Assembly: GCA_946965045.2 (NCBI GenBank)
Contig: OX337235.1
Span: forward strand, 2,170,001 to 2,234,000
Direction: 5' to 3'
Source: Epithemia pelagica
Lineage: Eukaryota; Protista; Bacillariophyta
DNA: 64,000 nucleotides
This document shows, piece by piece, positions 33,109-62,857 of this stretch. The notes beneath the pieces were generated by a model. The model was not told the origin of the DNA. It saw only the letters and a program-made list of their open reading frames with translations, and searched no databases. Position 1 is the stretch's first letter. The number at the start of each line of letters is the position of its first letter. The translations under genes were made by a program, and so were the position numbers.

Positions 33109-35193
33109 TCATGAACTGCCTTGTACAGTCCCTGTTGAGAAACCAGTTTTTCCAGACGTGTGCTTCAACCTTTCTTTCTTGTGCTTCAGTTCCGAGGCAC
33201 GCTCCCTTAATTTCTCCAAAAATTCGATTGCCTCTATCCTTTGTTCTTCTGAGAAACTCACGAGAAGATCAAGGTCTTGATCGGCGTCCCATTTTTTGTT
33301 CAACCATTGTTGTCGTTCGGCACGAACTTCTTTCTGCCCAGCGACAAAAGCTTCCATAGCGGAGGAGCGGTGTTCTGATGCACTTTCCATATGGGAAATC
33401 AACTTCTCGCCTACTCCTTCATTTAGGTCACCCGAAGAACCACTGTATACAAGATCGTCGTCGTTTATTAAATCTGGCCGAATCTCTTCTGGATCCATCG
33501 TTTTCCTCATAAATAGGCCTTCTTGAAGAGCTGAGTTGTCTGCATGGTGGCTGCTGCGAAAATGTTGTTGCCTTTCCTCCGGGGGGTCAAGCACACCTTT
33601 CGCCTCGTTTGATTCCACGTACTCGGATCCACTCTTCTCATCACCTTGGTGTACTCTTTGTCGTTCTTCATCACTCACGGAGTTATGAATTTCATTGTAT
33701 TCCATTGTTTCATTATCTATCTCCAATCCCGTCACTTCTTGTTGCAACTGATCGTCTTCGGCATTTCCATGAATACTGTTTGGTACAGAGCTGTCCAGAG
33801 TTTGTTGCACCACGTCTTTGTGTAAAGTTTCTGAAAGGTGCTCATTTCGGTTATACAACTTGGATTCTTCGTCTTGATCGACAACATGCATTGCCGACAA
33901 CTCTGTCTCCTTCGTATCTTCAGAACGCATCGAGGTGAGAACGCCAAACTCTTCCCCAGACACTGGGGGTGAAGTGTCCGCATGTGCTAAATCACTACGA
34001 ACAACGTGGGTTGTCCCTCCCTCTATGTTAATTCCTCCCTCAACGCTCATGGTGTATTCCACATTCTCTTCCTGCTCTTGCTCACCATTGATTTTGTCTT
34101 GTTCCTGTTGTGTATCGTCCATATTTTCTACATCTTTGTCTCCCAAATCCTCGTCTCTTCTAATCAGAATTGACTTCAACGTCCGTGCCCCAGACAAATC
34201 AGTGTCCTTCATCCCATTCCTTGATTTTTCCTGGTAGCGATTATCCCCCATCACGTACGGAAACGTTGGAAATTCCCCTCTTCCCAATACCTCTGCAGCG
34301 TCGTGTCGAGCACTGCCACTTTCAGTTTTTCGATGGCTGAACTCTCGAGTATGATAATCTCGATCAAGATGCTCTTGAAGCTCCATCCCCCTTTGGCTTT
34401 GTTCGAGATCTCTATGAGCATCTGACCTCCCTCGAGTCCCTTGTCTGCGTGCCCTCATCGCACCCTGTTGCTTCTTCGGTGTTTTAATAATCCCTGGGTA
34501 AATTTCTTCCGAGCGAGAGTCCATGCGATCGCGGGCTGTTTGCGTTGGCAAGGATGTACACATTTCCATCAGGGGTGTTTTCTTTTTCATATTTATTGCA
34601 GAAAACTGATTACAGAATTGAAGAGTGCCACTTCCATTCGACCGTGAAGATCTGCCTTGACCAGAGCTGAAGCCACAATTTTGACCTTCAAGCCAAGCGC
34701 AGCCCCTGTCAAGCATCTTGACAATCATTGGCACTGTGGTCGACTGGAAGTTTTTGTGTAAATATGAATCTTCTGATCCCAAATAGGAAACAAGCGAGAT
34801 CTTTGAATCTGTATCCTCTCTGGTATCCGTATCTTCTCTGGTATCGGTATCCCGCCCATCGCTTTCAACTTCAGCAAAATCAATCTCCGTCTTTCTGAAG
34901 TCAAAGGTCACCTTACGAGGGACAAAGGAATTGATTTCTGACGGAGGAGCGTCTTTTGACTCACGTTTAGGAGCAGAATATGTTTCACCATCATCTCCGA
35001 CGTTAGGCTCAAGTTTGTACCGATTCAATAGTTCCTGCGAATTGGACAAGCTCTGCGACGACGAAGAAGCCTGTGACAATTTCAATTGAAGCTGTTCGAC
35101 GATCTGGGAAGGCTCTGGGTTGCTCCTGTTGCTTTGATAGATCTCATTCGAGAATTCTGTTGATTGAATGGTTTCCTGTTCGAACGAGGTCAT
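33109..35193 (-). CDS. Disordered protein, GCAW-motif family member 2
   Basis: 694-aa ORF; SLVSYLGSED..VPMIVKMLDRGCAWLEGQNCG; C-terminal helix EEQRIEAIEFLEKLRERA. Confidence 0.7.
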   Translation of the reverse strand: MTSFEQETIQSTEFSNEIYQSNRSNPEPSQIVEQLQLKLSQASSSSQSLSNSQELLNRYKLEPNVGDDGETYSAPKRESKDAPPSEINSFVPRKVTFDFRKTEIDFAEVESDGRDTDTREDTDTREDTDSKISLVSYLGSEDSYLHKNFQSTTVPMIVKMLDRGCAWLEGQNCGFSSGQGRSSRSNGSGTLQFCNQFSAINMKKKTPLMEMCTSLPTQTARDRMDSRSEEIYPGIIKTPKKQQGAMRARRQGTRGRSDAHRDLEQSQRGMELQEHLDRDYHTREFSHRKTESGSARHDAAEVLGRGEFPTFPYVMGDNRYQEKSRNGMKDTDLSGARTLKSILIRRDEDLGDKDVENMDDTQQEQDKINGEQEQEENVEYTMSVEGGINIEGGTTHVVRSDLAHADTSPPVSGEEFGVLTSMRSEDTKETELSAMHVVDQDEESKLYNRNEHLSETLHKDVVQQTLDSSVPNSIHGNAEDDQLQQEVTGLEIDNETMEYNEIHNSVSDEERQRVHQGDEKSGSEYVESNEAKGVLDPPEERQQHFRSSHHADNSALQEGLFMRKTMDPEEIRPDLINDDDLVYSGSSGDLNEGVGEKLISHMESASEHRSSAMEAFVAGQKEVRAERQQWLNKKWDADQDLDLLVSFSEEQRIEAIEFLEKLRERASELKHKKERLKHTSGKTGFSTGTVQGSS

Positions 35194-35280
35194 CCTCTCG
35201 AGAATTTCCTTATGAAGATTCGAAACTTTCTCACTTTAGCGCATTGGCCATGTACACAGCAATCTCTTGCATTAGAGATA

Positions 35281-35320: not shown

Positions 35321-35795
35321 CAGGAGGGGCTCTTGTTCAATACACGAGAATTATCGAAGAGAGGTAACTTGTAATTTGCTCTGGCATTCTTGTTTCTGGG
35401 GTTGCACTCGTCGCAACTGACATGAGAAGGCCCGTGCACGTGTCGATCGCGAAGGCGGCCTCGCTCAGACGGGAATCACATTTAACATCTTAGGAATACA
35501 ATAGTCCGACGTCAATCATGCATCCGTTGGAGCGCTCGCTCTTTCTGTATGTATTTTCCCATACAACGACTAGTTAGTAAACCTGTTGCGCACTTAGAAG
35601 TATTGGAAATTATTTAATGTATTTAGGCCCTATCCCTATTGATCTATCTATTGTAGGTATTCTTCGAGGTAGCCTAGGTAGGAGTAGCTACTGGGGATTC
35701 GGATTGGGTAGTCTCCTCCATCCAAAGTGAGGGTCGAACCTGATCCGTTTACTCCACCAATTACACACTAATTAGCATATACGTCAAAGTGATTG

Positions 35796-35954
35796 TGTCT
35801 TGTTCCAGTCGATACCTTATTCAACGTGCAAATTAAAAGATATTATAAGGCTAAACCACTAATGTAAGGATCCCCAAAATAGTAACCATGTAAACGGTAA
35901 AACCCCCAAAGATTTCCCATATCCGGGTTTTGTTCCCACGACCCGAATAAGACA
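35796..35954 (-). repeat. 3' LTR of Copia 1
   Basis: Identical by eye to 42008-42166; terminal inverted repeat TGTCTT/AAGACA. Confidence 0.95.
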
Positions 35955-35985: not shown

Positions 35986-38900
35986 TCACTTTGTTGTCCC
36001 CCGCGGTTGTGAGGGAGGTCCCCGGTCCCCAAATGCCGATGAATATGTGAACTGTGAGATCAAGTTATTTCTTCGACTCTGGGGAAGCATCTTGGTAAAC
36101 AAGTCAGCAATGTTGGTCTCCGTGTCTTCCTTGCCGACTCTGACGATTCCTGCGGCTGCCGCTTCACGGACCGAATGATAGTTGATGGCGTTGTGTCGCT
36201 TGCTCAGGATGGATGAAGGTATGCTGGTATTTTTGACAACGCCTCGATTGTCACAGAGAATATTGGCCGGACCGACAACCGGAACACCGAACATTCGCAA
36301 CTTATACCGCATCCCAACAATCAACTCTTTGGCGATTCTCATCGCCACGAATTCGCTCCCGAAACTGGATGTTTCCACGGTATTTTGGCGTTTTGAGAAC
36401 CAAAGGATCGGAGCGTTCTGCAAGAACACCAATATGCCTGTGTGGGATCGACGCGTGACGACATTCCCAGCATGATCTGCGTCCACGAAGCACGTGATTT
36501 CCACCGGATTCCCAAGCGGTGTCGGCATGTCTGCTGGTACTTCTTCCGCTACGTCCCCGTAAAACTCTTTCCACTCTTCGATCGGTGTCTGCGCGAAACA
36601 ACTCTCGTCTAGCTTCACTGTGACAGGGTCGAATACCATCTTGAGCTTCGGGTGAGATTTGAGGAATGAAAACACGCAATACACAGCTTCAAGATGTCCC
36701 TTCCGCGGATTTGCTAGATACTGTGACATGATCGAAACTTCCAAGTAGATATCCACGCGGCCAATCTCGACCGCCCATCTCAACACACCAATCAGCTGTT
36801 GGTACCGAGCTCTCATCTTATCATCCAGCTCCTCAGAAGTATCAAGCTCGGGCTTGTACGAAGTTTCGATTGGTACCCGCGCAGTTGTTTTGAGATGTTT
36901 TCCGTCCCCGTCTTCCAGCAACAATTGCTCCACCACTTTGATCGCGTTATTTACGTACTTCTCGCTGGACATACCCCATGCCGTTCCCCCTGTGGGCAGG
37001 TTGTGTTGGTACACCTGCGCCCCCAGGTACGTGGTCGGTGGTCCGATACTCCCTTTCTTTATCTTGTAATGGCGGTCTATCTCCTCAAACACTGGTTCAG
37101 GCTTGTGGCTGACAAGCAAGATGTCATCAACGTAAACTAAAATCAGCTCATAGTACGGTTCCCCATTGTCACGCTTTCGTTCCCGTCGTAGGACACATGG
37201 ATCCGCCTTGGTATCAACATATCCCATGTCATAGAGAGTGCTCACCAGCGTCGCTCGCCAACTGGCTCCCGAGGATTTTAGCCCGTAAAGCGCTCTTGTC
37301 ATCACGCACACCTTCCCTTGAAACTCTGAACCCACTTCCGCTCCACCTAGGAACCAAATCTTCTCGCGACATGGCGCATTAAGGTAGGCATTTCCAATGT
37401 CACAAGCCAGTACGTCTAGGTCATTCAAGGCTGCGATTAGAAACGCTATCCGAATTGAATCGCGACTCACAACGCTCGAATAAGTAAGACTTGATGGGGC
37501 ATCTGTCATGTGCCCACCAGCCACCAATCTGGCTTTTCTCGTCAGGTCCATCTTCACATCGAAAACCATGTGGCACTTGATTTCCGTGTACCCTATTAGC
37601 TGTCGCCCTGCTCGCACCTCCGCAAGCACGAGATCGTCGCGAGCCTCCCAGGCCACCTTCACGACTCCTAGTTCCTTCGCGATCGCGTCCCGCCAGAACG
37701 TCGTCCCCGTCTCTTTGTCAAACTGTAACGCCTCTTCCACGGAATGTGGCAGTCGCACCCCATACTTGTGTGTCAGTTTCCAATACTTTTTCTGCTTCTT
37801 CTTTTTCCCAACGACCTTGTTTATGATCCTTCGTTTGTGATTCATGACACGTGGCACCCACCAGTGGAATGCCGGTTCCTGCTCTAACCCTTGTGCGACT
37901 ATATATTCTGCTAACTCTATGGGGTATCCGTCCTTTGCTTCCCGAAGCGGTATCCATGACTGACTCCCATCCTTCCATTCAATCGCAATTTCCCACCCTT
38001 TCGTCGTTCTTCTTGGTACCTTGTTCCCATTCTTGGACACTATGAAACCGTCGTCCTTCCCAACGGCGTCCCCGTTTTTCCTGTGCCCAATGATCTCGCT
38101 CATGATTGCGAACTGTCGACCTTGATCATCCAGCTGCGAATACAGCGACTCCGCAATGACATTGGCGGTGTATTCCTGGATGACACCTCCAGGGAAACTC
38201 ACATCGTAAGCTCTACTGTCAAAGAGTGGATTCTTGTGCCTCGTTCCGATTGGTTTGCCATCTAACCCTTTCTTCCTCTTCACTACCGTCCCGAGCAACG
38301 TTTCACCGCCAACGTCTAACTGGATTTGCGCCCCCAAGTAGTTGTCATACTCCTCGCCAAGGTCGTCCGCTTCTGGCTTCGGTTCCTGGATCATCTTCCC
38401 GTATTCTTCATCCGTCGGAATTACACCTTTTACTTGAGTGTCGTCCTCGACCGGTTCCTCTACGTCCTCCAAAAATCCTGGTCCCTTGCTCTCCCAATCC
38501 ACAAAATTCGTATCGTCGAGGCGCTGCTCAACAATCAACCGGAACTCTTGAATCTTTGCCGTGATGGCTGGTTCCGCCTGTTCCTGCTCCGTCACATGTT
38601 GCACGGTTGTCCTTGCCAACACTTTTCCTGCTTTAGTGAGAATCCAATAACAAAGGTCGCTGCCAATTCGATGCGCTATCCCCAGCCAGAACCCAAGGTG
38701 ACGATGTTCATCCGACGTATCGGCTTTGGTGTTGTCATGATACCAGACAATATCGAAAAACTGGAAATCGATCCACTCCGAGATGTCGGGTGTCTCGCCT
38801 GTAAGTCGTTCTATGCCGCTGCGGCTGTCATGTCCCCGGGCGACGCGACTAAGTACACCCGACTCATGAACCAACCCATAATCCCACAGACGACGAGGAA

Positions 38901-40046
38901 CCCGACAATCAACCATGCGGCGAAGCGGCTTAATTTCGTGAACTGCGTGGCGGCCCCCGTTTGCTCGCCGGCCAAATCCGCCGTCAGACCATCCGGAACC
39001 CCAACTTCATCAATAAAACGGGCCAATGCTTGGCCGACATGTGCCTTGGAAGCGAGTGGGTAAACGGCCGTGTACTGTCCGTCCGTGAATATTTGCGCAC
39101 ATTTGTGTCCCGAAAGTGATGTCGTCCGAGCGAAAAGCGTATCCGTATAGAACCGACTATTCAATCTATTCCGATGCAATGCCAAGTTGTCAACACGATA
39201 TCGTCGCGTTATAGGCGTGACAGCTGTCCGGATACCCTGTTGGGTGGTGACGCGGAGGGTTTTCCGCGCGGTTTCCAACCCAATCTTCCATTTCTTGCTG
39301 AGATTTTCCGGTGAAACGGTCGAGTGACGGTCCGAGCCGAGACCGCCGACCGATCTGAGACTGTCGAGTCGCTGCCCCACGGCCACAGGATCGCATGCGC
39401 TAGAGACCGCGCCAATTTCGAGTGAGATCGCTTCACGTGCATCATCTAGCGGGCTACGATTGTGTAAGCTCAAATCCACACTTTTTGGGTCCCATAACTC
39501 TTGACGCGTCAAAGTCACCGCAGGTAAAGTTTCAATTTCATGCTTGGTAGGCGCGCGGGACTCAAAGTAAATAGTCGTCCCCTGTATCTCGAAGGGAATA
39601 TATAACCCGTCGGCCGTGATGCCAAATCCTTCGTCCTCCTTCCTTGTGGGGTCATCGCGAACCACATGCCCACAATACCGAATTTGATTTTGATTCAAGA
39701 GAGTCTTCTTTAGTGCGCTACCAAACCACAACATTTGGTGGCCGATTAAGATGTATTCTACTCCTGTACTTTTCTCTCGGATGCATGTGGCACATGTCGC
39801 TATCGGTACGTATTGACCTCCTACCTGTTGTCCCATAAAGTCACTAACCTTGCATTCCATTCCTGTTGTTTCCATGAGTGTCCAATTGACACCAGCGCAG
39901 GAGGTGTCTGCCATCGTATCCATTTCGTTGCATGCAACATCATTCCCATTCCCAGTGCTGATTCCCATGTTTCCTATGCTACAATCCACCGTCTTGTCAG
40001 TGGTCACCTCACGCCTGGCCCCACAAGTAACCACTGATGCCTGGCG
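35986..40046 (-). pseudogene. pol: Copia 1 pol (PR-IN-RT-RNase H), frameshifted by a deletion in the integrase core
   Basis: PR MDTMADTSC; IN HHCC-like region and FYTDTLF..GVPD..TAD; break at ~38920; RT KARLVAGG, DIGNAYLN, LYGLKSSG, YVDDIL; RH FVDADHAG..RRSHTG, CDNRG, NIADLFTK. Confidence 0.9.
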
Positions 40047-41951
40047 TCACTCATATGCGCCGGCTCCGAATCTGCGTCCGTTGGTGCTGCCACGGTCGTT
40101 GCTACCGGGATTCTCGGTTCCCGCCGCACTACCAGCGGCATGTCCATTGGTACCTCCGCCGACAGACGGGTCTGTGATGACCGATGGTGGCTCATTATTC
40201 TCATTCACGTCGACATTGCCGATGCCGCGTCCACTGGCAGCAGAACCGCGCCCCCAATCACCACCGCGCCCCCAATCACCACGTCCCCGCCCGTAGCCAC
40301 GGCCGCGGCCACCACCACGGCCGCCACGATCACCTGAGCTGCGGAGCCGAGCTCGTTCTTGATGGATGTACGCCTGTCCGGCGGGCCCAAGAGTGGCCAT
40401 CTCCTGGGAAGTGAATCGGCGGCTGACTTCCGTGACGTCAACGCCGTAGAAGGTGAAAATACCGTTGTGCTGTTGGAGGCCCGCAAAATTCCGTGGACGG
40501 GAAGCGGGTGACTGTTCGCCCGTGTGTGTTTCCGAGATAAACCAGTGCCGAGTGCCAGGACGTGTGCCACTGCCTCCGATGACATTCGGGTACAGTTCCG
40601 AGACTTCACGCGAGATATAGGCGATGGCGTCATCTAAATTAGACCTGTAGTTGCTTCGCACGGTGCTTTTTATGACGGCAAACTCGGCCGTTGCAATTCG
40701 GATGTTGTCCAGCAAGATCTTGACCTGATTTGCATTCGAGCGTCGATTAGGTGTCTCTTCGAGCGTGCGGAATGCACGTAGAAGCTTGGTAGAATAGGCG
40801 TCGAAGCTAAACGCTCTCTCGTTGTGATAAAATACGGAACTAAGGATAGCTTCAGCCTTGTTGATACGTTTCTCTTTCTGGCCGCCGCCATCGTAGTGTG
40901 CTACCAAGGCTAACCAAGCCGCTCGACCGTTCTGGGATGCCTGGTAGGGTTGAATCCACGTTGCGGGTTGGTCGCGTACACGGTCACTAAGCAACCGGTA
41001 CACTGCCTTGTTGTCTTCGTGAAAGAATGGTCCAGTCAGAGGGTAAGTGTACAATTCTTGCTCTCGGAGAGTTTGAAAGACGTGTCCAGGTTGAATTTCA
41101 GGCCTAATTACATAGTCGAGTGGGGCTTGTTGCTTCCCAATTATGTGGGACAAATAGGTAGGGAATTCGCGAGACCAATCTTCCCATATCTCTTCCTTGA
41201 GGATTTCGGGCTTAATTTCCGGTGCCTTGTCAGTTTCTGCTTTAATTTCCATCTCGTCGAGGGCATCCGAGAGTACCACTTGGTCGAAGTCGGCAGCAGT
41301 GATGTCACGCCTCTGTCTACGGGCCTTGGAAGCCCAAAAACACAGCCCTTGAAGATTCTTTACGACGCTTGTTGGAAGGCTTATATTGTTCGGTCCAGGG
41401 CGTTTCTCCAACCTTGAAGCTAAGGACGTGACATCATCCTTACTCATTCGTCCGAAGGCGTGTAACGAATTAAGACGTTCTATGTTTTCTAGTACTTGAA
41501 TTTCGTTTGCGTTTGCCCCGCACACGGTCAATACCAGCCCGACTTGCGAAAGCGCGGGTGGTGGTCCTGCAGGCGGGTGCGGTATCGGGGGAGGTGGTGC
41601 ACCACCATCGCCATCATCGCCGTGTCCACCACCACCACCGCCTCCTCCAGCGCCGCCGTCTCCTCCAGCGCCGCCAGCGGGTGCACCTCCAGCGGTTTCG
41701 CCCTGTGTCGACACGCTTCTTGTTCCTCTCGTTCCACTACTTGAACTCCCGGCTCTATTACTAGAGCCGCCAGTACTTCCACCAGTGCCACCACCACTGG
41801 GGTTCCGTTCCGTTCCTGTTTTCCTCGCGGGCATCTTTCTACTACCCGTATCCGTACTGGCTCCCCCCGCTGGGACAGCGGTTCCCGTTCCTTGCCCCTC
41901 GGGGCTTGTTTCCGGTGGATTCTTCGTCGTAGCTCTAGTACTCGTTACCAT
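40047..41951 (-). CDS. gag: Copia 1 gag (Gly-rich N-terminus, RGG-rich C-terminus, no CCHC knuckle)
   Basis: Long open ORF ending in TGA, in frame with pol; PLDYVIR, GRAAW.AL..HY.G and FD.Y motifs typical of this Copia group. Confidence 0.85.
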   Translation of the reverse strand: MVTSTRATTKNPPETSPEGQGTGTAVPAGGASTDTGSRKMPARKTGTERNPSGGGTGGSTGGSSNRAGSSSSGTRGTRSVSTQGETAGGAPAGGAGGDGGAGGGGGGGGHGDDGDGGAPPPPIPHPPAGPPPALSQVGLVLTVCGANANEIQVLENIERLNSLHAFGRMSKDDVTSLASRLEKRPGPNNISLPTSVVKNLQGLCFWASKARRQRRDITAADFDQVVLSDALDEMEIKAETDKAPEIKPEILKEEIWEDWSREFPTYLSHIIGKQQAPLDYVIRPEIQPGHVFQTLREQELYTYPLTGPFFHEDNKAVYRLLSDRVRDQPATWIQPYQASQNGRAAWLALVAHYDGGGQKEKRINKAEAILSSVFYHNERAFSFDAYSTKLLRAFRTLEETPNRRSNANQVKILLDNIRIATAEFAVIKSTVRSNYRSNLDDAIAYISREVSELYPNVIGGSGTRPGTRHWFISETHTGEQSPASRPRNFAGLQQHNGIFTFYGVDVTEVSRRFTSQEMATLGPAGQAYIHQERARLRSSGDRGGRGGGRGRGYGRGRGDWGRGGDWGRGSAASGRGIGNVDVNENNEPPSVITDPSVGGGTNGHAAGSAAGTENPGSNDRGSTNGRRFGAGAYE

Positions 41952-41993: not shown

Positions 41994-42007
41994 TGGGTCT
42001 GATAAAC
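41994..42007 (-). promoter_or_regulatory. Primer-binding site of Copia 1 (GTTTATCAGACCCA)
   Basis: Immediately 3' of the 5' LTR; identical 14-mer in Copia 2 at 62392-62405. Confidence 0.85.
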
Positions 42008-42166
42008 TGTCTTGTTCCAGTCGATACCTTATTCAACGTGCAAATTAAAAGATATTATAAGGCTAAACCACTAATGTAAGGATCCCCAAAATAGTAACCA
42101 TGTAAACGGTAAAACCCCCAAAGATTTCCCATATCCGGGTTTTGTTCCCACGACCCGAATAAGACA
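42008..42166 (-). repeat. 5' LTR of Copia 1
   Basis: Direct repeat of 35796-35954. Confidence 0.95.
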
Positions 42167-42356
42167 ATTGTTCCAACATCTGACATCAGACCTTGACTGG
42201 GTTTGTGATATTCGTCCGTCGACATAGATACTATTCCATGACACCCACAACATCAGGAGAATCACAAGTGTTGGTAGAAATACATCATTCTTAATGATTA
42301 AGCTACCAATCTTATTTACACTTCCCGCAGCTTCCGCTCCTTGTCCCAGAGGGTGA

Positions 42357-45300
42357 TCAGCTCCCAAAAGAAGTGGCATGTTGCAGCTTGAATCGTTTTT
42401 CTCTTTTCTTCCGTCTTTTCTTTAGTTTTTGAGCTCTGCTTCGAAGTCGCTCTGCAAGCTCCAGTGCGGCAAGTCGTTCTTCTTCCGTAAGATTCCTAAA
42501 GACTGTAGCGTCGATTTGTGTTGTTATCTTGTGGCTTTTCTTTGCAGATTTGTGGGATTTCTTCGACACTTTGGACGAGCTACTTCGTAAGTTCGGCTCC
42601 TCACGACCAGCGAAATCTCCACCTATTTCCTCCAAGCTTGCCATGATAGGGTTGAAACCACTGATCTCTTCTTCTGGATCTACTGAAAACCCTCTGCGGT
42701 GCACCTCCCCGTTGTAATCCGATCTAGAATGCATCTGGTGAATGGCGTCATGGTGTTGAGATTCTCTGGGGTCTTCCTTCGGCCTTCGAATTGGGGATCT
42801 TCGTCCTCTGCTGTCTCCTGAAGTATCTTCAGGTGGGTCAGAAGACTCCTCTACGTCTACTGTCAGACCATTTCTGTTGTCTGTACTCTGTTCATATCTG
42901 GTCCCTGCATGTCCTCCTTCGCCCGAGTTTTCAGATTCTGACAGAACAAACAGTTCATCCCCATCATCGACCACATGTACTCCCGTATTGTCATCAACGA
43001 GAAACTCATGTCCAATTTGAGGCGTTGCCCCAATCAAGTACACGTCATGTGTCCCATCCATTCCCTGTATGGAGGAGCGCCATGCGACATCATCTTTACC
43101 ACCAGGGGTGCTAACAGCGGAACCGTTTCTTGCTTCGCTCACGGCTGGGACTCCAGCATTAAAGCGCTCTCGGATGTGCCCCCCGACTCTGGCTGGTTCA
43201 CGACGGTCGCGCCCAGAGCTTCGGCGTTCCTCGCCATGAAAATATTTTGTAAATTCGCTGGGATCTGCTTCTTGAATCATCTCGGTCGGTAATCCGTCTA
43301 AGCTAAGCAAATTTATTGTAGATTCGCCCTCACTTCTCGAAAGGACAACGGGAGGATCAACAGGGCTTCTGGTTCTGTGGTCTTCAACTGTTTCGACATC
43401 AATTGGGTGCAAGATAGAAGTCCCCGAAGTCTGTTTGTCTGTGTTGTCACTCTCTAAGTTTCCGTTGTTCGCATCAAATTCGGCCTGCACAAGGATGACA
43501 TCATCGGAGCGCACGTTTAAACTTTCCGCGATATCACGTTTCTCCTGGACCATGGTTCCGTGATTGTCATTTGTTGTGTTTGTCTTTCGATTCGATGAAG
43601 AGTCCCGAGTATCGGGTACTTCTCCGTCATTAGAATTATCAAGTTGCTCATTCGCAACATCAACACTGATGACGTTCACTCCCCCTTGTGCGTCACTTTT
43701 GGACACAGGGGATGCTGATGCGTTGGTCGCGTTATTCGTCTTCTTGACGGAAGGTCGGGGCTTTAGTTCTGTTGATCCAGTAATTCGCTTTGTCGCCAGA
43801 CGTCCCGACGCATACTTGTTGACAAGGGGAGCCTTCTTTTTCAGATTCTTGCTTGAAAAATTGCTCGAATGTGGGAGAAGACCGGTTCCACCACCTTGCG
43901 CTTTAGATTTGCTCTCCTTAAGTAGTGACGGAGATTCAAACCCGCAGTTATGACCTTCAAGCCAGGCGCATCCCTTATCCAGCATCCGTACGATCATCGG
44001 CACTGTGGAAGACTCAAAATTCGTGTCCAAATCAGAATCTTCCGACCCCAGGTACGAAACAAGCGAAAGTTTCGAATCGGTGTCTTCCCGTGTCTCATTA
44101 TCACGATCATTGCTGTCGGACTCATCAGCTCCTCTTTCCCCTTTTGGCTCAACCATTGAGAGTATACGGGCACCGTTGTGATGGAGCGGAGTGTTCCGAT
44201 TAGAAGAAGGCTTCAATGACATGGCTCTTGTCGGTTTCTCCTGGGTCAATTTATGACTGTTCAATGATATCCCAGGTGGACCAAGCGGGGTCGAAGATTT
44301 TTGAGACACACCATCAGATGATCCTGGTTTCTTCACTGAATTCCTTTCCTGACTCTTTTGTAATAGACTTATTGATTCTTCATTTTGAGCTGATTTTCCC
44401 GAGCTTTCCATTGGTCTTGCCGCCTCTTCATCGTTGTGTCTTCTAAAAATGTTGAAACCAATATCTCTTGCAGGCATTGGGCTGTTGTCGTTCTTCCCGA
44501 TTCTCGCGGATGAGCCGTAGATGGGTTCGTGACTGAAACTGCTAAGAGCGGCGTCAATGGAAGGCATCTCTATTCTTTGCGGACCTTTCAGCGGGGTCGC
44601 GTTGGTATCATGGTTACCATGATGGTCATCACTGGAAGACACCGCAATATTTGCTTCGTCTGGGACATCGAGTTTCATTATCGTTGCTCGCAGATGATCG
44701 AATGCTGTTTCAGGTTCAATTCTTGCCGGATAGTTTCCACTCCGTGCGAATGTCCTCGGTAGCGACGATGATCGCTTTTTCGACCACATCACCTCCCTTC
44801 TGTAAGGATGATGGGGACTTCCATATGGGTTTAGTCGGCCATCGATGCTGACTAGCTCGCTCTCACTGTGTGACAGCTCTTGTCGTGAGCCAACGTCATA
44901 TTCTGGAGGTGGAGGTGCCACTGGTTTCGATTCTTGTTCGTCATTCGTATCATGAGTTGGGAGTACCGGGGAAGGAGGCATTCCAGGAGTTTCCTGATTT
45001 CCGCTTGCCCCGGATGGAAGTTGTTCTACATCCTTCGAAATTTCTCCGTTAATAGTTTCATCGGGCGTATGCTCCAACAGAAAGGAGTGAGCTTGTCCCT
45101 CGGTGCTACTTTGTGTTGGAGGTTGATCCAAACTCGAAGGTGCAGCTTTTTGACTCATTGAAATAACGTTAGCGTCAACAGGGCTCTTGTTCTCAGTCAC
45201 GAAACGAACTGCCTCCGGCTGTTCTGTCGTAGTTGTTGTTTCGACCTCATGATTCGAAGTTGTTTCGTTCCCAGATGAGTCCACTCGTCTGCTCTCTACA

Positions 45301-47672
45301 CTATCTGAGGCTTCCACATTTTCGGTTTTGGTTCGCTCAGAGTTCGTTGTATCAAGTGCTGTCACCGCCGCTGTAGGCTCCGTCGTTCCGTTAACTTCCA
45401 TTCCGTTGAGAGCAGCGACTATACGGCGCGTGGCCTCTGAATCAAACGCAGCTTTCTCCTCGACGGAGGGGGTCTCACTATGAACAGGCTGTATCTCAAG
45501 AGAAGTCGACATTTCTGTATCGTCCAATAATTCCCGTGAAATCTTTTGGCTCAACTCTTCTGAACGATCGATACTATTGAAGCTTTCCAACACGGATTCC
45601 TGTGAGTTCTCAGCTTTCATTCTCTCGTTTGGTTTATCCACACTTGTTTCACTTGTTATTGTGTTTTCATCAAATGGCAGACTCGGGTCCCAGGGAATAT
45701 TTCTATCTCCGCTGTCCTTTTTCTGATGTTTTGAACCATTTATTTCGTGTCGCATAGAATCCTTCTCCGTTCCTTCAGTTGCCTGAAGCCCGACGTCGTC
45801 AAGTTGACCTTCACTTTCAAATCCTCCTTCGGAACTTTCGCGGTGCCCCTCGTCCGAGAAATCATTGCTTTTGCGCTTGATCTCTTTCGTTTTTGGTGAT
45901 GCTAGGAGTGCCCGAGCCTTTTCGAGGACACGAGATCGTCGCTCGGTCAACATTTGTCTCTCCTTCTCCATTTCTCTTGAGATCGAAGAAGGGGTTGAAA
46001 TAGATGCTTCGTTTCCATCGCCAATAACAACTTGAACCATGGATCCTTTGCTTTTCAAGTTTTCCACCAGTCTAGGTTCATCTTCTCTTGTTTCTGAAAG
46101 TTCTGTTCGCATTTGATCTGTCTTCAAGGGGCCGTCCATCCCTGCTTTCAGATTATGGTTAAGATCTTCAGTACGTCTACCAGTTATCCATGGTCTGCTC
46201 CAGAGCATGTTCGCACGAGATGCCTTGGTCCTCTCTTCTGTCGGTGAACGCTTAGGACTTTCCAGGGAACTAGTATTTTGACCCAACTCTGAACTGTCAG
46301 ATCGATCTTTTGTGTCATCGAAGTCCGCGGAAGGACTTTCAAATGGAACGTCCATGACTGCTGAGAATTTATCATCAGTATCTGTTTTTGGAGAGGTGAC
46401 AATCTTCTGTGGACGAGTCCACAACGTTCGCTTCCTGTGTAGCTCTGTTCTTGGGGAGCTTGTTTCTGACTGTCGGCTCTCGAACGAGTCCGTAGCGACT
46501 TGATTGTTTTTGCTTGCTGAAATAGGGGATTGATGACGGTTTGTCGTCTTCATATTACTGGAATGATATAATGACAACACATCAGTATGCACGGGTGTGC
46601 TTCCACCTATGCTATTGCTGTTTCCTTGTTGATCCGTGCCTTCTGGGGCAATGACTGGATCGACCGATCTTCCAGGGTTGATACCAAGCGAGGGTGACTC
46701 GCTCTGGAAGCGCACGCTTCGGCGATACTTCGTACCGTTCGCACGGGGTGATGACAAGTATCGTTCCTCAGTTGCTTCCCTTTTAGGACTCAAGGTACCT
46801 CGGTCTTTGACCAGCTTATTCGAGTACCTCTTCACAACTGATTCTGAGTACTGATTGTCAAACAGGGAGTCCTTTTGCTGTCTAGCGTACTCTTCCTCGG
46901 CCTCGATCACCGATGTCACGGACGTAGTAGCGGTGGGAACGGACGACGGATTACTTTGCTTTGTAGTCTCTGCTCCATGGCTTGATGACGTGGATCGATG
47001 GCCGGGTGAAGGAGGACTCTTGGGATGCGATGATCGAATGGGAGACAGGTTTCCTGAAACTTTCAGGTCAAAGTTTCTTATGGGAGAGGAACCACCAGCT
47101 GGAGATCTAGGGCTTGATTCTCGTCTTCTATTTTTGTCCACAGAAGTCTCCATTCTTCTGGATTCCACAACATCGTCGAATTCTTCCATGACCATGACTC
47201 CATCCATTTTGCGATCCATGTTGAGAGGTTGTTCCGACGTTCCGTTCGCACGATAGAGATGCCTTGTTGCACCCATTTTGTCATAATCGTTATTTCGATA
47301 TCGAGACGTATGCTTTGGCGAAAATGATTCATATTCGGCAGACTCCTCTCGGTAAGCAGTTCCTGATGAAAAATTCCCATTTCCCCTTCTAACAGGACTA
47401 TGACTGCCTCCTCTGGTTGCATTTGTTGAATGATCGTCTGAGAATCCATGCTTTCTTTCTCCCCCTTGATAGCCCCCCTGGTAATCGACTAGCGTTAAAT
47501 CAATAACATCATCATCCCGTTGATCGTCAACAGCATCATCCAGCACAATGGGATGAGGAGTTCCTCTCGATTCATACATGTCAGGATGAAGCGGCGGTTT
47601 TCCATTCCTCCACATGGTGATTGAAACCTCAGAGCTTTGTTGTGCCCTTACGCTGTTATCTCTTGCATACAT
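42357..47672 (-). CDS. Very large disordered protein (1771 aa), GCAW-motif family member 3
   Basis: Single ORF; SLVSYLGSED..VPMIVRMLDKGCAWLEGHNCG; C-terminal helix EEERLAALELAERLRSRA followed by a basic tail. Confidence 0.75.
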   Translation of the reverse strand: MYARDNSVRAQQSSEVSITMWRNGKPPLHPDMYESRGTPHPIVLDDAVDDQRDDDVIDLTLVDYQGGYQGGERKHGFSDDHSTNATRGGSHSPVRRGNGNFSSGTAYREESAEYESFSPKHTSRYRNNDYDKMGATRHLYRANGTSEQPLNMDRKMDGVMVMEEFDDVVESRRMETSVDKNRRRESSPRSPAGGSSPIRNFDLKVSGNLSPIRSSHPKSPPSPGHRSTSSSHGAETTKQSNPSSVPTATTSVTSVIEAEEEYARQQKDSLFDNQYSESVVKRYSNKLVKDRGTLSPKREATEERYLSSPRANGTKYRRSVRFQSESPSLGINPGRSVDPVIAPEGTDQQGNSNSIGGSTPVHTDVLSLYHSSNMKTTNRHQSPISASKNNQVATDSFESRQSETSSPRTELHRKRTLWTRPQKIVTSPKTDTDDKFSAVMDVPFESPSADFDDTKDRSDSSELGQNTSSLESPKRSPTEERTKASRANMLWSRPWITGRRTEDLNHNLKAGMDGPLKTDQMRTELSETREDEPRLVENLKSKGSMVQVVIGDGNEASISTPSSISREMEKERQMLTERRSRVLEKARALLASPKTKEIKRKSNDFSDEGHRESSEGGFESEGQLDDVGLQATEGTEKDSMRHEINGSKHQKKDSGDRNIPWDPSLPFDENTITSETSVDKPNERMKAENSQESVLESFNSIDRSEELSQKISRELLDDTEMSTSLEIQPVHSETPSVEEKAAFDSEATRRIVAALNGMEVNGTTEPTAAVTALDTTNSERTKTENVEASDSVESRRVDSSGNETTSNHEVETTTTTEQPEAVRFVTENKSPVDANVISMSQKAAPSSLDQPPTQSSTEGQAHSFLLEHTPDETINGEISKDVEQLPSGASGNQETPGMPPSPVLPTHDTNDEQESKPVAPPPPEYDVGSRQELSHSESELVSIDGRLNPYGSPHHPYRREVMWSKKRSSSLPRTFARSGNYPARIEPETAFDHLRATIMKLDVPDEANIAVSSSDDHHGNHDTNATPLKGPQRIEMPSIDAALSSFSHEPIYGSSARIGKNDNSPMPARDIGFNIFRRHNDEEAARPMESSGKSAQNEESISLLQKSQERNSVKKPGSSDGVSQKSSTPLGPPGISLNSHKLTQEKPTRAMSLKPSSNRNTPLHHNGARILSMVEPKGERGADESDSNDRDNETREDTDSKLSLVSYLGSEDSDLDTNFESSTVPMIVRMLDKGCAWLEGHNCGFESPSLLKESKSKAQGGGTGLLPHSSNFSSKNLKKKAPLVNKYASGRLATKRITGSTELKPRPSVKKTNNATNASASPVSKSDAQGGVNVISVDVANEQLDNSNDGEVPDTRDSSSNRKTNTTNDNHGTMVQEKRDIAESLNVRSDDVILVQAEFDANNGNLESDNTDKQTSGTSILHPIDVETVEDHRTRSPVDPPVVLSRSEGESTINLLSLDGLPTEMIQEADPSEFTKYFHGEERRSSGRDRREPARVGGHIRERFNAGVPAVSEARNGSAVSTPGGKDDVAWRSSIQGMDGTHDVYLIGATPQIGHEFLVDDNTGVHVVDDGDELFVLSESENSGEGGHAGTRYEQSTDNRNGLTVDVEESSDPPEDTSGDSRGRRSPIRRPKEDPRESQHHDAIHQMHSRSDYNGEVHRRGFSVDPEEEISGFNPIMASLEEIGGDFAGREEPNLRSSSSKVSKKSHKSAKKSHKITTQIDATVFRNLTEEERLAALELAERLRSRAQKLKKRRKKREKRFKLQHATSFGS

Positions 47673-55157: not shown

Positions 55158-55945
55158 GGGCCTGTGTCCAGGGAATGTGTTTTTGAGTTCTGAAATCGAG
55201 TTTCGAGTTTCGAGGTTGAGCCAATAGGTTATGGTCCCCTTGAAAACTCGAAAACACAACCTCGAATCCCCCAAATCTTGGCAATCCCCCAACGACCTTG
55301 CCAAGATTCTGAAATCGAGTTTCGAGTTTCGAGGTTTGCAAAGAGCCCCACGCGCTCCTACAAAACCCACCTTTCAGCCGCCGGGCTCTCTGTTTCTCAT
55401 TTCGATCTCTCCGACAACAACAACGAGGCAATCTCTCTTGTCCATCATAGACAATAGTACTCCTAGCACAATGATTGATGTGATATAAGTAGGAGCTTCT
55501 CTAGAAAATAAGCAAGTATTATTAACCTGTCGCTGCCATGGAAGTAATGGTCACAACCACTGTCAATGGTCAAAAGTAAATAGTTCTCATCTCTCCATAG
55601 ATGACATGGTTACGGAACAAAGCCCGCATCCTGCTCCATGGACGGGCTCTACAAATATTCTGCCTTCTCCCGTTATGCAATGTGATATTAGGAATTAGGA
55701 GTACTCAAGCGACATTTGTTTGTCGTCATTGTCAATTGCCGTTGTGCTCGTTCATGCGCCGGTAGGGGGGAAGCATGGGAGTGCACGAGTATTGAAAAAT
55801 AAAACTCGAAACTCGAAACTCGAAAATACAGTTTTTACCTGGACACGTACATCCAGATCGTTGTTTCAAGGTAGGGACAGAGCCCCACCTCAAAACTCGA
55901 AACTCGATTTCAGACCTCGAAAACACATTCCCTGGACACAGGGCC
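55158..55945. mobile_element. PIF/Harbinger-like MITE (788 bp) with TAA TSD and subterminal AAACTCG repeats
   Basis: TIR GG(G/C)CCTGTGTCCAGGGAATGTGTTTT..GAAATCGAGTTTCGAGTTT (~50 bp); TAA at 55155-55157 and 55946-55948. Confidence 0.88.
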
Positions 55946-56098
55946 TAAGAAAACCCGTCCGTTGGGCATACGGAGCACCGTCATGGGTGCACGGGTACAA
56001 AAGACATTCCAAACAAAGAAGTGAACTAAAATATAGGTTACAGAGTCACTACTCCCTATCTTCTCGATTTTCATACGTACGACATACATACTTTCTTA
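55946..56098 (-). repeat. 3' LTR of Copia 2
   Basis: Direct repeat of 62406-62558; ends TAAGAAA/TTTCTTA. Confidence 0.95.
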
Positions 56099-56227
56099 GT
56101 CCCCTCAAACAGTACTCGATCCCATTGAGAGCTGTTTGCCATCCCAGTAGTAAGTGTATTCGGGCCAACTAGCCCAGGAAACCTCAAGACCTGCACAAAA
56201 CCTCATAAACGAAGATGAGGAAAGGAC

Positions 56228-59200: not shown

Positions 59201-61536
59201 AGCAACAGCGACAAAGCTTCGTGTGCATCGCCTTTCGAGGCCAGAGGGTACGCTCTAGTCCATCCATTCCTTGCCGTGAAGACTTGAGCACAAGTATTAC
59301 CCAGCCTAGACTTCACCTTCGAAAACATAGTGTCCGTGAATAAGGCATGAGGCAATGGCCGGTATCGGTGGAATCGGTCGTTCGTCGTGAACCTCTTGGT
59401 CAGAGGGTTCAATGTGGTACGTAGACCACGTTGCGTCGTCACTCGAAGGGTATCCGCAGCACGTTCCAATCCACATCCCCATCGACGTGCCAAAGTCTTG
59501 GCATCGATAGCTTTTCCAGAAGGGGTAGTTTGTGTAACGGAAAGAGTCGCCACGCGTGCTTGCAGAGCAGTCGCGAAGCATGCGCTTTCCGACGGTCGTG
59601 AATCGGAAAGCAAAGTCGTGAAAGGGTCATTGGGTCCCCTCGAGCGAACGGTGGAAATCGATCGTTGGAGGGCCGCTCGGGCCGACATTTCATCCCGAGC
59701 GAAAGAGTCATCTTGGGGGTCCCACGGCGGGTCGGGACTAGTCAAATCAAAGCGACGACATGAAGCATATTCGTCGGAAGTGGGGGTCCTTGTAGGGAAA
59801 TAGGAAGTGACACCACATAAATCAAGGGGTATCACAAAATCCTCATCGTCCTGATCTTTCAGGACCAGTGCGTGTGTCTTATTGTCGGGATTATCGGTCA
59901 AGAATTTCGGTTGGTCCGAAACTTGCACGTCATTCATCCACAACTGCATAGGACACAGGAGGTTGTGAGTAAGCAATGGTATATAAATGGCCTGGTTCAC
60001 GATTAGGATCAATACTTCACCGGTATCGGGGCAATCGTAAGCTAGAGCTGCAATTATAGTCTTGCAACTCTTGTGAACCACACCCTGAGAAGAATCATAT
60101 CCCTTGACATCCACAGGGCGGCCGTAGTCCTGTACAACCATCGCAGACCTTCCAACAACACACGTGTCCGCATGACTATCAAGCTCGGTACGAGACTCGC
60201 CCTCGTCGGACGTGTCGACCGCACCGACACGCACTGAGCGGACCACCGCTCATTTCCGTGACTTCTTCTGGCGGGTTAGCGCCGGATTGTCGCGATTCGA
60301 CTCGGACTTGCGCTTTGCCGCAGGCTTGGCATCATCATCGGAACTATCGGACGATGAGTCATTGCCGCTGGCTCGAGGTGGATCGCGCAATGGGGGCAAG
60401 CTCACCATTGAATTCTTCGCGAGAACGGACAGGGCAGCGATGTTCCTCTGAAACTTCTTGGAAAAGAACTTCATCTCTTTGGGCTTGCTGGAATCACCCT
60501 TGCCCGTGCGATTCTCCCGCATTTCCTTCAACTTCTTGCGCTGGGCGTGAGAAAGCTTCTGATATTCGTCTTTCTTATAATATCGGTCTTCTACGCCGCC
60601 ACTAGCCTTCCCCCCCAGACTTAGTCTTACCAGAATTAGAATCAGTCTTGGTACTGATACTCGATACTTGAGACTGACTAGCCGATGGACGCTGTGCTAA
60701 GAAATTCTTAAACAAGGAGACGGCACGAGTGAAATCGGCTTGTAGAGAATCATCCGACATGATTCATGTCTTCACCGCTTGAAATTGGTCGGTCTTGATT
60801 CCGTCCATCAGATGCCGAACCTTAGAATGGTCATCGATGCCAGGATGGACGCCCTGCTGGCGTAATCCTTCTAAGATCGCGTGCTGATTCACGTGGATCT
60901 TACAGTATTTCTCGAAGTTGAACCGTTTATGTTCACCGTTGTAACTCGTGTTCATAAGTTTCCGTTCAGCTTCGTTGGCCAAATTGTTCGCGTTGTTCGG
61001 CCCTAAGTAATGGTCAAACAAGGCTTGATAAGCCGCTCGCCCGTCGCGATTTCGGCTCGCCTTGCGGATGTAGGTCGAGCAATCCATCCGTTCACACATA
61101 GCGGACAAACGGATCCAAACCTTGGCCCGATCCTGCAAGTACTGACGGGTAAAACCGTCGTTCGGTCCGTTTCCAACACGGTGACGAGCGCGTGCAATCA
61201 TCTCGGCCTCGTCGGACTCAAATCCACCTTGCGGGTCAGCTCCGGGGAATTCGTCCGTCCGGATCACGTCTTGAGATTCATCTCGGCTAGGATAGAAACC
61301 TCAAAGCCTGGATTAGGGACAGGCGGCGGAGCTGCAACTCCTGCCGCAGCGGCAGGAGGAGCTTGGACACCACCGGGGCGACGGACGGCCTTGCAGAGAT
61401 TGGTGACGCCGTCGTCGTCCAAGTCGCGGAGGTCTTCGATCGAGGAGAGTCCTTGGCGGTCCACAACGTACTGGGATGCCGGGTTGGAGAACTGGAGGCG
61501 GATGAACGCCTGACGCATTGCAGCTGGAGCGGCCAT
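56228..61536 (-). pseudogene. Copia 2 gag-pol, broken by several deletions, one nonsense codon and a homopolymer frameshift
   Basis: PR ELDSHADTCV; IN FTDTMF..MDG..EPYTPWANAAESAIRELK; RT KARFVAGG, DIKNAYL, LYGLKSAG, YVDDVL; RH YVDSDHAG, GDNMS, NPADLATK. Breaks near 61265, 60765, 60612, 58550 and 57240. Confidence 0.9.
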
Positions 61537-62391
61537 GGTAGTCAAAACAACAATCAACTCGTAACTTCTTGAAACACTTCCTCAAAAGTGAGCTTTCCAA
61601 GACGAGTTTTGCCATGATTTTAATCCATTCCCTACGTAGAACCACTACTGGGTTGCACACAATCCTTGATTGTTGCTCAAAATCGGTCGTGCCAGACCTA
61701 ACCCACATGATCTTGGCCCTAATTGGCTAGATCCACGTAGGAGCCCGGAAAAGTCTTTTCGTTGGTTCCACAAGACACCCGAACCACGTCTAGGTATATT
61801 TTGTCCTGCAGTGGAAGGCCTCACATAGAGCTAAGCTCATGTGCTCCCGGCCAGAGGGATAACAAACCGCAAAATGTGAGACAAGTCCCAAACGGTTGCG
61901 GTGCGACACTGTACTTATTCCAAAATTCAGCACTGTGCAACAATGAGTACCCCCCCCCCCTCCGTTGAGAAGGCTGTTTCGGACACATGCCCCCATTTCA
62001 TCCACATGAAAAGTGGTCCCAGGAATATTCTCTGGACCATTTTCCCAGGGTAAAATGCGAATCACACATATAACTGGTTTTGGGATGCGTTCTGATTTCG
62101 AATTCCGCAACCATGGCGGATCTGGTTCACTGGGATGGATCCAGTAGGGAAGACCGTCGCCATTCCCCCAATCTGCGCACCTTTTCGCAGACAACGGTAG
62201 CGCCAAACGATAGTAACGTACCATTATCATTGTGCCTGCACGAGCCCATTCACAGGTGCAATCGGTCAACCAATGAGCCCCAACAGTTGGGTTATATCTG
62301 TCGGTTTGCCTTACCGGCTTGGGCATGACGCCAACGATCGCAGCCATCTGTCCAGGCATTGGACCGTCTACTTCCATGTTGTCGGCCAGTT

Positions 62392-62405
62392 TGGGTCTGA
62401 TAAAC
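62392..62405 (-). promoter_or_regulatory. Primer-binding site of Copia 2 (GTTTATCAGACCCA)
   Basis: Abuts the 5' LTR; identical to the Copia 1 PBS. Confidence 0.85.
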
Positions 62406-62558
62406 TAAGAAAACCCGTCCGTTGGGCATACGGAGCACCGTCATGGGTGCACGGGTACAAATGTCATTCCAAACAAAGAAGTGAACTAAAATATAGGTTA
62501 CAGAGTCACTACTCCCTATCTTCTCGATTTTCATACGTACGACATACATACTTTCTTA
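62406..62558 (-). repeat. 5' LTR of Copia 2
   Basis: Direct repeat of 55946-56098. Confidence 0.95.
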
Positions 62559-62857
62559 GCTCAGCTGCACGTGTGCCGCCGTTGGATGAACTTCGTTTTC
62601 GGGAGCTTACCTCCATACCCCATACCCGACTTACTTATTTATTTGGCCTGTTGTTGAGACCTTCTGGCAAGACGGCAGTTCGCAGCCTCTGGTTCTGGTA
62701 GTCGAAGAGCCTATCGCTATGAGTGGGTATTGTAGATTGAAAAAAAAAACTGGAAATCTATTATAACGCTGCCGCACGCACCACGCATGATGACGCCGAC
62801 CGACGCGCCGGGCCTAGAAAACTAGGCAAGGACTAAATAGGGTAGCTTGAGAGGAGC

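What the first reader, a model, noticed from the sequence alone, without database searches (positions are those of the whole stretch)
39997..40052. gag-pol joined by a single in-frame UGA followed by a 13-bp stem or pseudoknot (Copia 1)
Seen: gag ends GAG-TGA (40049-40047) and pol continues in the same frame (CGC CAG GCA TCA GTG...). Nine nt after the stop lies a 13-bp stem, UCAGUGGUUACUU/AGGUGACCACUGA (2 G-U pairs, 15-nt loop). The loop (GCCAGGCGU) can also pair back with ACGCCAGGC at the stop, giving an H-type pseudoknot. Established: UGA-C is a leaky context, and 3' stems or pseudoknots about 8-12 nt downstream stimulate readthrough in gammaretroviruses (MuLV) and alphaviruses. Most Copia elements instead use one ORF, a frameshift or splicing. 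Inference: programmed stop-codon readthrough sets the Gag:Gag-Pol ratio in this diatom Copia lineage.
Basis: partly seen in the sequence, partly recalled or inferred. Interest (0 to 1): 0.8.

Follow-up and report, generated by a model that had tools for sequence, protein, structure and literature searches.

The report
Leaky UGA between copia gag/pol
A young copia-type jumping gene, likely from a diatom, has its coat gene and its enzyme gene in one reading frame split by a single UGA stop with a predicted RNA hairpin just behind it, and most sampled relatives keep that UGA, so the enzymes are likely made when ribosomes now and then read through the stop, a trick known from some viruses and yeast retroelements.

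Summary
Confirmed: gag ends in UGA (40049-40047), pol follows in frame, and a 13-bp stem starts 9 nt behind the stop; it is the longest stem in the element (1 of 2000 shuffles match it). The stop is not private. Sister copies keep it. Of 79 related loci, 58 have an in-frame stop at the gag end, all UGA, mostly UGA-C; 10 are single-ORF. A stem at +7 to +17 is predicted in 14 of 22 families and covaries in two relative groups, though not testably in this family. The pseudoknot is not supported: its extra helix uses the stop and spacer, which the ribosome covers, and relatives lack it. This copy has a 94-nt integrase deletion; sisters are intact. Best reading: alphavirus-like (type II) programmed readthrough, inferred, not measured. 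Precedents: Tca2, Tj1/Tosmo, MuLV. I found no paper on it in diatoms. This scan noted the same layout before on other genomes. On a protease tree the stop is gained or lost at least six times.

The parts
42008..42166 (-). 5' LTR of element 1 (159 nt, TG...CA)
   Evidence: identical to the 3' LTR
35796..35954 (-). 3' LTR of element 1
   Evidence: 4-bp target duplication ATTG at 35792-35795 and 42167-42170
40047..41951 (-). gag, from first ATG to the UGA; ends in the conserved NGxxFGxGAY motif
   Evidence: 21 of 45 gag homologues end just after this motif
40047..40049 (-). in-frame UGA, followed by C (UGA-CGC)
   Evidence: kept in sister copies
40038..40046 (-). 9-nt spacer
40025..40037 (-). 5' arm of the 13-bp stem
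40010..40024 (-). 15-nt loop; 40019-40011 can pair with 40047-40039 (8 of 9 pairs), not conserved in relatives
39997..40009 (-). 3' arm of the 13-bp stem
38924..40046 (-). pol, first part: protease motif (DTMADT from codon 43 after the stop) and start of integrase
   Evidence: domain names from motifs (recalled), no Pfam hit
38922..38924 (-). site of a 94-nt deletion in the integrase core of this copy, with frameshift
   Evidence: contigs run on here and one holds 94 extra nt; sister Pol proteins hold the missing stretch
35986..38922 (-). pol, second part: rest of integrase, reverse transcriptase (RVT_2), RNase H; ends in UGA-A
60250..60252 (-). in-frame UGA (UGA-G) between gag and pol of a second, decayed and distant copia element (LTRs 55945-56099, 62405-62559)

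Best explanation
This copia element has gag and pol in one frame split by a single UGA, and it likely makes Gag-Pol by programmed readthrough of that stop, predicted to be helped by the C after it and by the hairpin 9 nt behind it. Most ribosomes would stop and release Gag. A minority would insert an amino acid by a near-cognate tRNA (Trp, Arg or Cys, as reported for UGA) while the stem sits at the mRNA entry channel, and go on into protease, integrase, reverse transcriptase and RNase H. Shown: layout, conservation of UGA and +4 C, open frame behind the stop, a stem at a fixed distance, paired changes in two relative groups. Inferred: readthrough itself, its rate, the role of the stem. The extra spacer-loop helix is likely not the stimulator. 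This copy cannot make an intact Pol (integrase deletion); intact sisters exist.
For: (1) Sisters keep the stop: contigs of X1-X3 show no change at stop or stem (may be the window's own source); one depth-2 contig of another study keeps both, with an in-frame 12-nt insertion behind the stem; 11 of 15 listed members of the Pol cluster start just after the stop, 8 of them full length, none fused; 4 of 5 Gag members end at it. (2) 58 of 79 loci have an in-frame stop at the gag end, all UGA; with the two window elements 60 of 60 UGA and 51 of 60 UGA-C, in 22 families at 80% protease identity; L080 adds one. Control, stops at the end of pol: 12 UGA, 6 UAA, 5 UAG; C follows in 4 of 23; family-level Fisher p about 0.002 for each (families are not independent). 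(3) From UGA to the protease motif the pol frame is open in 58 of 60, the other frames in 6 and 3; 881 codons before the first Met in 22 representatives hold no stop, 46 expected. (4) 10 of 22 families have no in-frame AUG before the catalytic Asp. (5) Folding z averages -1.4 just behind the stop against -0.43 to +0.37 in 18 other windows; +7..+17 is paired in 14 of 22 families against 9% of 176 controls. (6) Covariation: 20 sequences, 99.1% of cells paired, 4 of 11 pairs with two-sided changes, 0 of 500 shuffles reach the score; a second group, 3 of 14 pairs in 6 sequences. (7) The nearest separately called family (P0001) can keep 10 of 10 stem pairs, with a loop one codon shorter, by back-translation; eight single-ORF sisters reach 7-9; controls 12 of 200 (weak). 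(8) Matches type II signals: UGA-CUA/CGG plus a stem 7-12 nt behind (PMC3159437, passages).
Against: No measurement of readthrough; no RNA-level data. Tca2's UGA-plus-pseudoknot junction gave 0.3%, no more than a control stop, in S. cerevisiae (PMC2194720, discussion). This element's own stem has no covariation data, and its folding z alone is -1.3 to -1.5. 8 of 22 families score low for the stem, among them L006, L007 and L010, near relatives, and the second window element. Single-ORF loci L011 and L051 also fold long hairpins over the junction. The covariance model of the largest group hits 26 junctions but not this element, so the stems are alike in place, not in sequence. The covariation shuffle ignores relatedness, and changes are limited by coding. 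This family does have an in-frame Met 27 codons after the stop. 5 of 22 families are not uniformly UGA-C.
Confidence: 0.82

Rival explanations
1. Pol is made apart from Gag, by reinitiation or from a short transcript that starts at the junction.
For: Tca2 has a weak junction promoter. This family has an in-frame Met 27 codons after the stop. L063-type elements do have gag about 1.2 kb from pol.
Against: 10 of 22 families have no AUG before the catalytic Asp; the stretch before the first Met is free of stops (0 in 881 codons, 46 expected); nothing in this model asks for frame 0, UGA or +4 C.
Confidence: 0.06
2. Readthrough occurs but is driven by the proposed H-type pseudoknot, or the spacer-loop helix acts as a switch.
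For: 8 of 9 pairs, -12.0 kcal/mol alone; 10 of 2120 12-mers pair with the loop as well.
Against: It uses the stop's last base and +1..+8, inside the 11-12 nt held in the entry channel. Linkers of 1 nt would have to span 13 and 9 bp (my reasoning). Stop-to-loop pairing in 34 families equals shuffles. In MuLV, stabilising spacer-loop pairs lowers readthrough.
Confidence: 0.05
3. An inefficient intron removes the stop from a share of transcripts.
For: Here GAG-UGA holds a GU across the codon border; Drosophila copia uses splicing.
Against: Only 2 of 60 junctions have G before the stop; an intron would not need frame 0, an open frame or UGA-C.
Confidence: 0.03
4. UGA is decoded as selenocysteine.
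For: The stop is UGA in 60 of 60; stems behind UGA occur at some Sec codons (recalled).
Against: No Rfam match in this element (E up to 5) and no SECIS in 10 loci; single-ORF relatives have no Cys at the position; pol ends in UGA in 12 of 23. Rfam may miss diatom SECIS forms.
Confidence: 0.02
5. RNA editing turns UGA into a sense codon in some transcripts.
For: A double-stranded region lies next to the stop.
Against: Edited genomes would be copied back into Trp-codon copies; none was seen in the stop-bearing families, and fused relatives show no Trp at the junction.
Confidence: 0.015
6. A private nonsense mutation in a dead copy.
For: This copy is broken in integrase; the eight nearest other rows on the tree are single-ORF.
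Against: Eight full-length sister Pol proteins start after the stop; 58 of 79 loci have UGA at the same place.
Confidence: 0.005

Closest known systems
Tca2 (pCal) of Candida albicans, Ty1/copia (PMC2194720; abstract, background, discussion read)
   Same: Copia element with gag and pol in frame, split by UGA, with a 3' structure about 8 nt behind.
   Different: Tca2 has a purine-rich spacer and a putative pseudoknot, and its junction gave no readthrough in S. cerevisiae. Here a simple stem, UGA-C, and conservation over 22 families with covariation in two groups.
Type II readthrough signals of alphaviruses, tobra-, peclu-, furo- and pomoviruses, coltiviruses (PMC3159437; passages read)
   Same: UGA-CUA/CGG-like context (UGA-CGC is cited there for one pomovirus), stem of about 10-13 bp 7-12 nt behind the stop, variable loop, stop sometimes lost.
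   Different: Those are RNA virus replicases or coat extensions, tested in reporters. Here a retrotransposon gag-pol, untested; spacer is mostly 6 nt in relatives, 9 nt here.
Tj1, Tosmo1-3, Tcry1 of fission yeasts, Ty3/gypsy (10.1101/2022.12.06.519325; passages read)
   Same: In-frame UGA between gag and pol in a GAA-UGA-CU context; single-ORF relatives (Tf1, Tf2) exist; the paper says Tj1's stop is needed for transposition.
   Different: Gypsy superfamily; no 3' stem is mentioned in the passages seen.
Moloney murine leukaemia virus gag-pol readthrough (PMC3159437, PMC13517186; passages read)
   Same: Readthrough sets the Gag to Gag-Pol ratio; structure 8 nt behind the stop.
   Different: UAG-G and an H-type pseudoknot wholly 3' of the spacer; here UGA-C, and the only pseudoknot candidate uses the spacer.
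CoDi Ty1/copia elements of diatoms (PMC2806351; passages and section 18 read, supplement unavailable)
   Same: [quoted passage not shown]
   Different: The paper does not name the stop, its context or a mechanism in the passages seen; I could not place this element in a CoDi group.

Membership tests
Ty1/copia LTR retrotransposon | Direct LTRs with TG...CA ends and target duplication | tested here: met
   159-nt identical LTRs, 4-bp duplication
Ty1/copia LTR retrotransposon | Copia-type reverse transcriptase, with integrase before it | tested here: met
   RVT_2 E 5e-19; protease and integrase placed by motifs upstream (motif names recalled, no Pfam hit)
CoDi (diatom copia) groups | Clusters with named CoDi elements on an RT tree | not testable with these tools
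   no CoDi reference sequence was returned by any search
CoDi (diatom copia) groups | Diatom host | tested here: inconclusive
   named relatives are from Epithemia clementina (gag 64%) and Fragilaria crotonensis (pol 43%); no genome held
Type II programmed readthrough | UGA followed by C (CUA or CGG) | tested here: met
   UGA-CGC here; 51 of 60 UGA-C, 14 CUA, 19 CUC, 1 CGG
Type II programmed readthrough | 3' stem 7-12 nt behind the stop | tested here: met
   9-nt spacer and 13 bp here; relatives mostly 6-nt spacer; 14 of 22 families
Type II programmed readthrough | Stem supported by compensatory changes | tested here: inconclusive
   met in two relative groups; no variation available for this family's own stem; back-translation only
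Type II programmed readthrough | Measured readthrough that depends on context and stem | not testable with these tools
   needs reporter or ribosome profiling
Gammaretrovirus (type III) readthrough | UAG-G stop | tested here: not met
   60 of 60 UGA
Gammaretrovirus (type III) readthrough | H-type pseudoknot wholly 3' of an 8-nt spacer | tested here: not met
   second helix uses the spacer; best downstream partner of the loop is weaker and broken; not conserved
Selenocysteine recoding | SECIS element | tested here: not met
   no Rfam match; divergent forms could be missed

The most novel reading that the evidence does not exclude
A broad copia lineage of diatoms switches repeatedly between a single ORF and an alphavirus-like UGA-C-plus-stem readthrough signal at one fixed spot, and this element's family re-invented the stop and a new stem inside a single-ORF clade. 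It sits in a 100/99 clade whose eight other full rows are fused, its stem shares no sequence with the stems of other groups, and fused and stop-bearing families appear on the same large contigs. That would be convergent, repeated birth of a recoding signal, and the first programmed readthrough in diatoms that I could find.
Probability: 0.3. Interest if true: 0.7.

Novelty: new variant of a known kind. Interest (0 to 1): 0.5.

Why it matters
Readthrough is rare among copia elements, and the one studied case (Tca2) is unresolved. Here are at least 22 families with a UGA, a leaky context and in most a fixed-distance stem, beside close single-ORF relatives. That gives natural pairs for testing what makes a UGA leaky and how elements move between expression strategies. 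It would also show that diatom ribosomes support programmed readthrough, and it warns annotators that a UGA at this spot does not mark a dead element.

Tried and rejected
Two viral-contig scans found no relative; genome contigs gave one locus. No RNA holder listed; this says nothing on expression. X5, X6 and X8 laid nothing on the junction. Rfam: nothing in the element. PDB search with the protease alignment: two weak, unrelated hits. The protein atlas gave no answer. Gao et al. 2003, the survey of gag-pol recoding, is not held, and the supplement of Maumus et al. 2009 could not be read; either may bear on novelty. First back-translation test in fixed register gave 7 of 10 pairs for P0001, no better than single-ORF rows; 10 of 10 came only after allowing three registers for all rows and controls. 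The helix-start table has no control and was replaced. No pseudoknot-aware folding was available; helices were scored apart. Row P0244 was left out of the tree (motif not matched). Search of scan notes by sequence found nothing. Rejected: private nonsense mutation, MuLV-type pseudoknot, altered nuclear code (pol itself ends in UGA).

Full report
The element. The window holds a 6.4-kb copia-type element on the minus strand, with identical 159-nt LTRs at 42008-42166 and 35796-35954 and a 4-bp target duplication. Gag runs to UGA at 40049-40047 and pol follows in frame. A copia-type reverse transcriptase lies further on (RVT_2). Protease and integrase are named from motifs that I recall; Pfam does not hit them. 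Pol of this copy is split by a frameshift. Contigs of other runs continue past 38923, one with 94 extra bases, and sister proteins hold the missing integrase stretch. So this copy is young but defective. The host is likely a diatom: the named relatives come from Epithemia clementina and Fragilaria crotonensis. No genome is held.

The stem. Nine bases behind the stop a 13-bp stem with two G-U pairs and a 15-nt loop is predicted. Folding energy of the region alone is unremarkable (z -1.46 and -1.30). The uninterrupted length is not: 1 of 2000 shuffles reach 13 bp, and it is the longest stem among 632 windows of the element. It stays at 0.96-0.97 pair probability when the stop and up to 12 bases behind are kept unpaired.

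The pseudoknot. The loop can pair with the stop's last base and the spacer in 8 of 9 positions, with an A-A mismatch; 10 of 2120 12-mers of the element do as well. A review passage puts 11-12 nt behind the A-site codon inside the entry channel, and says that stronger spacer-loop pairing lowers readthrough in MuLV (PMC13517186). In 34 families stop-to-loop pairing equals shuffled controls. I therefore do not take it as the stimulator. A role as an alternative fold is not excluded.

Is the stop private? No. Contigs of X1-X3 bridge the junction without change at stop or stem; these may be the window's own source. One depth-2 contig from another study keeps both and has an in-frame 12-nt insertion behind the stem. 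In the protein collection 11 of 15 listed members of the 17-member Pol cluster begin just after the stop, 8 at full length, none fused to Gag; 4 of 5 Gag members end at the stop.

The lineage. A metagenome scan confirmed 354 relatives and returned the best 80, 79 distinct loci. An automatic rule anchored on the gag C-terminal motif called 52 in-frame stops; I added six by hand (L013, L055, L057, L058, L061, L079) and moved the stop of L033. Result: 58 in-frame stops, all UGA; 10 single-ORF junctions in two families (four with a nearby frameshift); one UAA with a shifted frame (L003); 10 without gag at the junction. Of these 10, L063 and L076 have a long ORF ending 0.8-1.2 kb upstream, L074 and L075 belong to L063's family, and six are cut short or rearranged. 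With the two window elements, 60 of 60 are UGA and 51 UGA-C, in 22 families at 80% protease identity. Terminal pol stops, as control, are 12 UGA, 6 UAA and 5 UAG, with C next in 4 of 23. The second, distant and decayed element in the window also has an in-frame UGA, followed by G and without a stem at this distance.

Is the stretch behind the stop translated? From UGA to the protease motif (23-93 codons) the pol frame is open in 58 of 60 junctions, the other frames in 6 and 3. For the eight hand-placed stops this holds by construction. In 22 representatives, 881 codons before the first Met hold no stop where 46 are expected. Ten families have no AUG before the catalytic Asp. Length differences in the largest group's stem-loop are multiples of three in the alignment. 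Reinitiation and splicing explain none of this; only 2 of 60 junctions have a GU across the stop.

Is the stem a lineage feature? Over 22 families folding z dips to -1.4 just behind the stop, against -0.43 to +0.37 in 18 windows further off. Positions +7 to +17 are paired in 14 of 22 families and 9% of 176 control anchors. In 20 junctions of the largest group an 11-bp bulged stem from +7 keeps 99.1% of cells paired, with two-sided changes in 4 pairs; 0 of 500 shuffles reach the score, and slid controls fall to 27-65% paired. This shuffle ignores relatedness. A second group of six shows the same build with a 50-column loop and 3 of 14 pairs changed on both sides. Against: eight families score low, including near relatives L006, L007 and L010; two single-ORF loci also fold long hairpins here; and a covariance model of the largest group finds 26 junctions but not this element. 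For this family's own stem there is no DNA variation. By back-translation the P0001 family allows 10 of 10 pairs with a loop one codon shorter, eight single-ORF sisters 7-9, random controls 10 in 12 of 200; in fixed register there was no difference.

History. On a protease tree of 51 rows (154 columns; P0244 left out) the UGA state needs 8 changes, at least 6 forced by well-supported branches. This element and P0001 sit in a 100/99 clade whose other eight rows are fused Gag-Pol. The branch that would nest them is weak (90/71) and the tree has no true root, so one loss in the sisters and a re-gain here are both open.

Mechanism. Most likely is type II readthrough: a near-cognate tRNA decodes UGA-C while a stem at the entry channel delays termination. 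Layout, context, open frame and stem position are shown; readthrough, its rate and the stem's role are inferred. Selenocysteine is unlikely: no SECIS by Rfam and no Cys in fused relatives. The main caution is Tca2, whose similar junction gave no readthrough in a yeast reporter.

What is known. In-frame stops between gag and pol are known from Tca2 (PMC2194720: abstract, background, discussion), Tj1 and Tosmo (10.1101/2022.12.06.519325: passages) and MuLV. UGA-C with a 3' stem is known from alphaviruses and plant viruses (PMC3159437: passages). Maumus et al. 2009 (PMC2806351: passages, section 18) mention one or no stop or frameshift between gag and pol of diatom elements, without detail; its supplement could not be read. 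PMC2774666 (passages) says nothing on stops. Searches listed no paper on readthrough in diatom copia elements. Gao et al. 2003 is not held, and Repbase and GyDB could not be searched. Earlier notes of this scan report the same layout on other genomes; I saw them after forming my reading and did not use them as support.

Verdict. Real, conserved and likely programmed; a known strategy in a lineage where I found it undescribed, with an alphavirus-like rather than MuLV-like signal. Interest 0.5.

Noticed in passing
loci L005, L015, L020, L021, L033, L036, L039, L055, L071, L077, just behind the UGA: 10 of 22 stop-bearing families encode a hydrophobic 17-residue stretch (Kyte-Doolittle mean 1.75 or more) right after the stop, often followed by basic residues; it overlaps the stem. 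A membrane anchor of Gag-Pol or a by-product of U-rich loops. This element lacks it (my notebook says 9, the table gives 10).
   Followed up: partly
L063, L074, L075, upstream of pol: An antisense ORF of 214-298 codons lies between gag and pol; in L063 the gag-like ORF ends 1246 nt before the protease motif. A third layout in this lineage.
   Followed up: no
L003:129-135: Gag ends in UAA and pol lies in another frame; a decayed copy or a different signal.
   Followed up: no
window 55945-62559: Second copia element, decayed by several stops and frameshifts, with in-frame UGA-G at 60252-60250; the stop can pair with the bases just behind it; long stretch (about 850 nt) between 5' LTR and gag start.
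   Followed up: partly
window 41994-42007 and 62391-62404: Both elements share a near-identical 13-14-nt primer-site sequence after the 5' LTR that is not the usual initiator-Met 3'-end type; it may match an internal part of a tRNA (recalled, untested).
   Followed up: no
L002:6586-7027: The element's contig ends in the start of a eukaryotic small-subunit rRNA gene; perhaps an insertion in the rDNA spacer.
   Followed up: no
window 33109-35235 and 42357-47672: Long host ORFs on both sides of element 1 share a 164-nt stretch at 74% identity, suggesting an insertion between duplicated genes.
   Followed up: no
L080 and P0150: Elements of this lineage occur in bacterial metagenome bins, most likely as eukaryotic contamination.
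   Followed up: no
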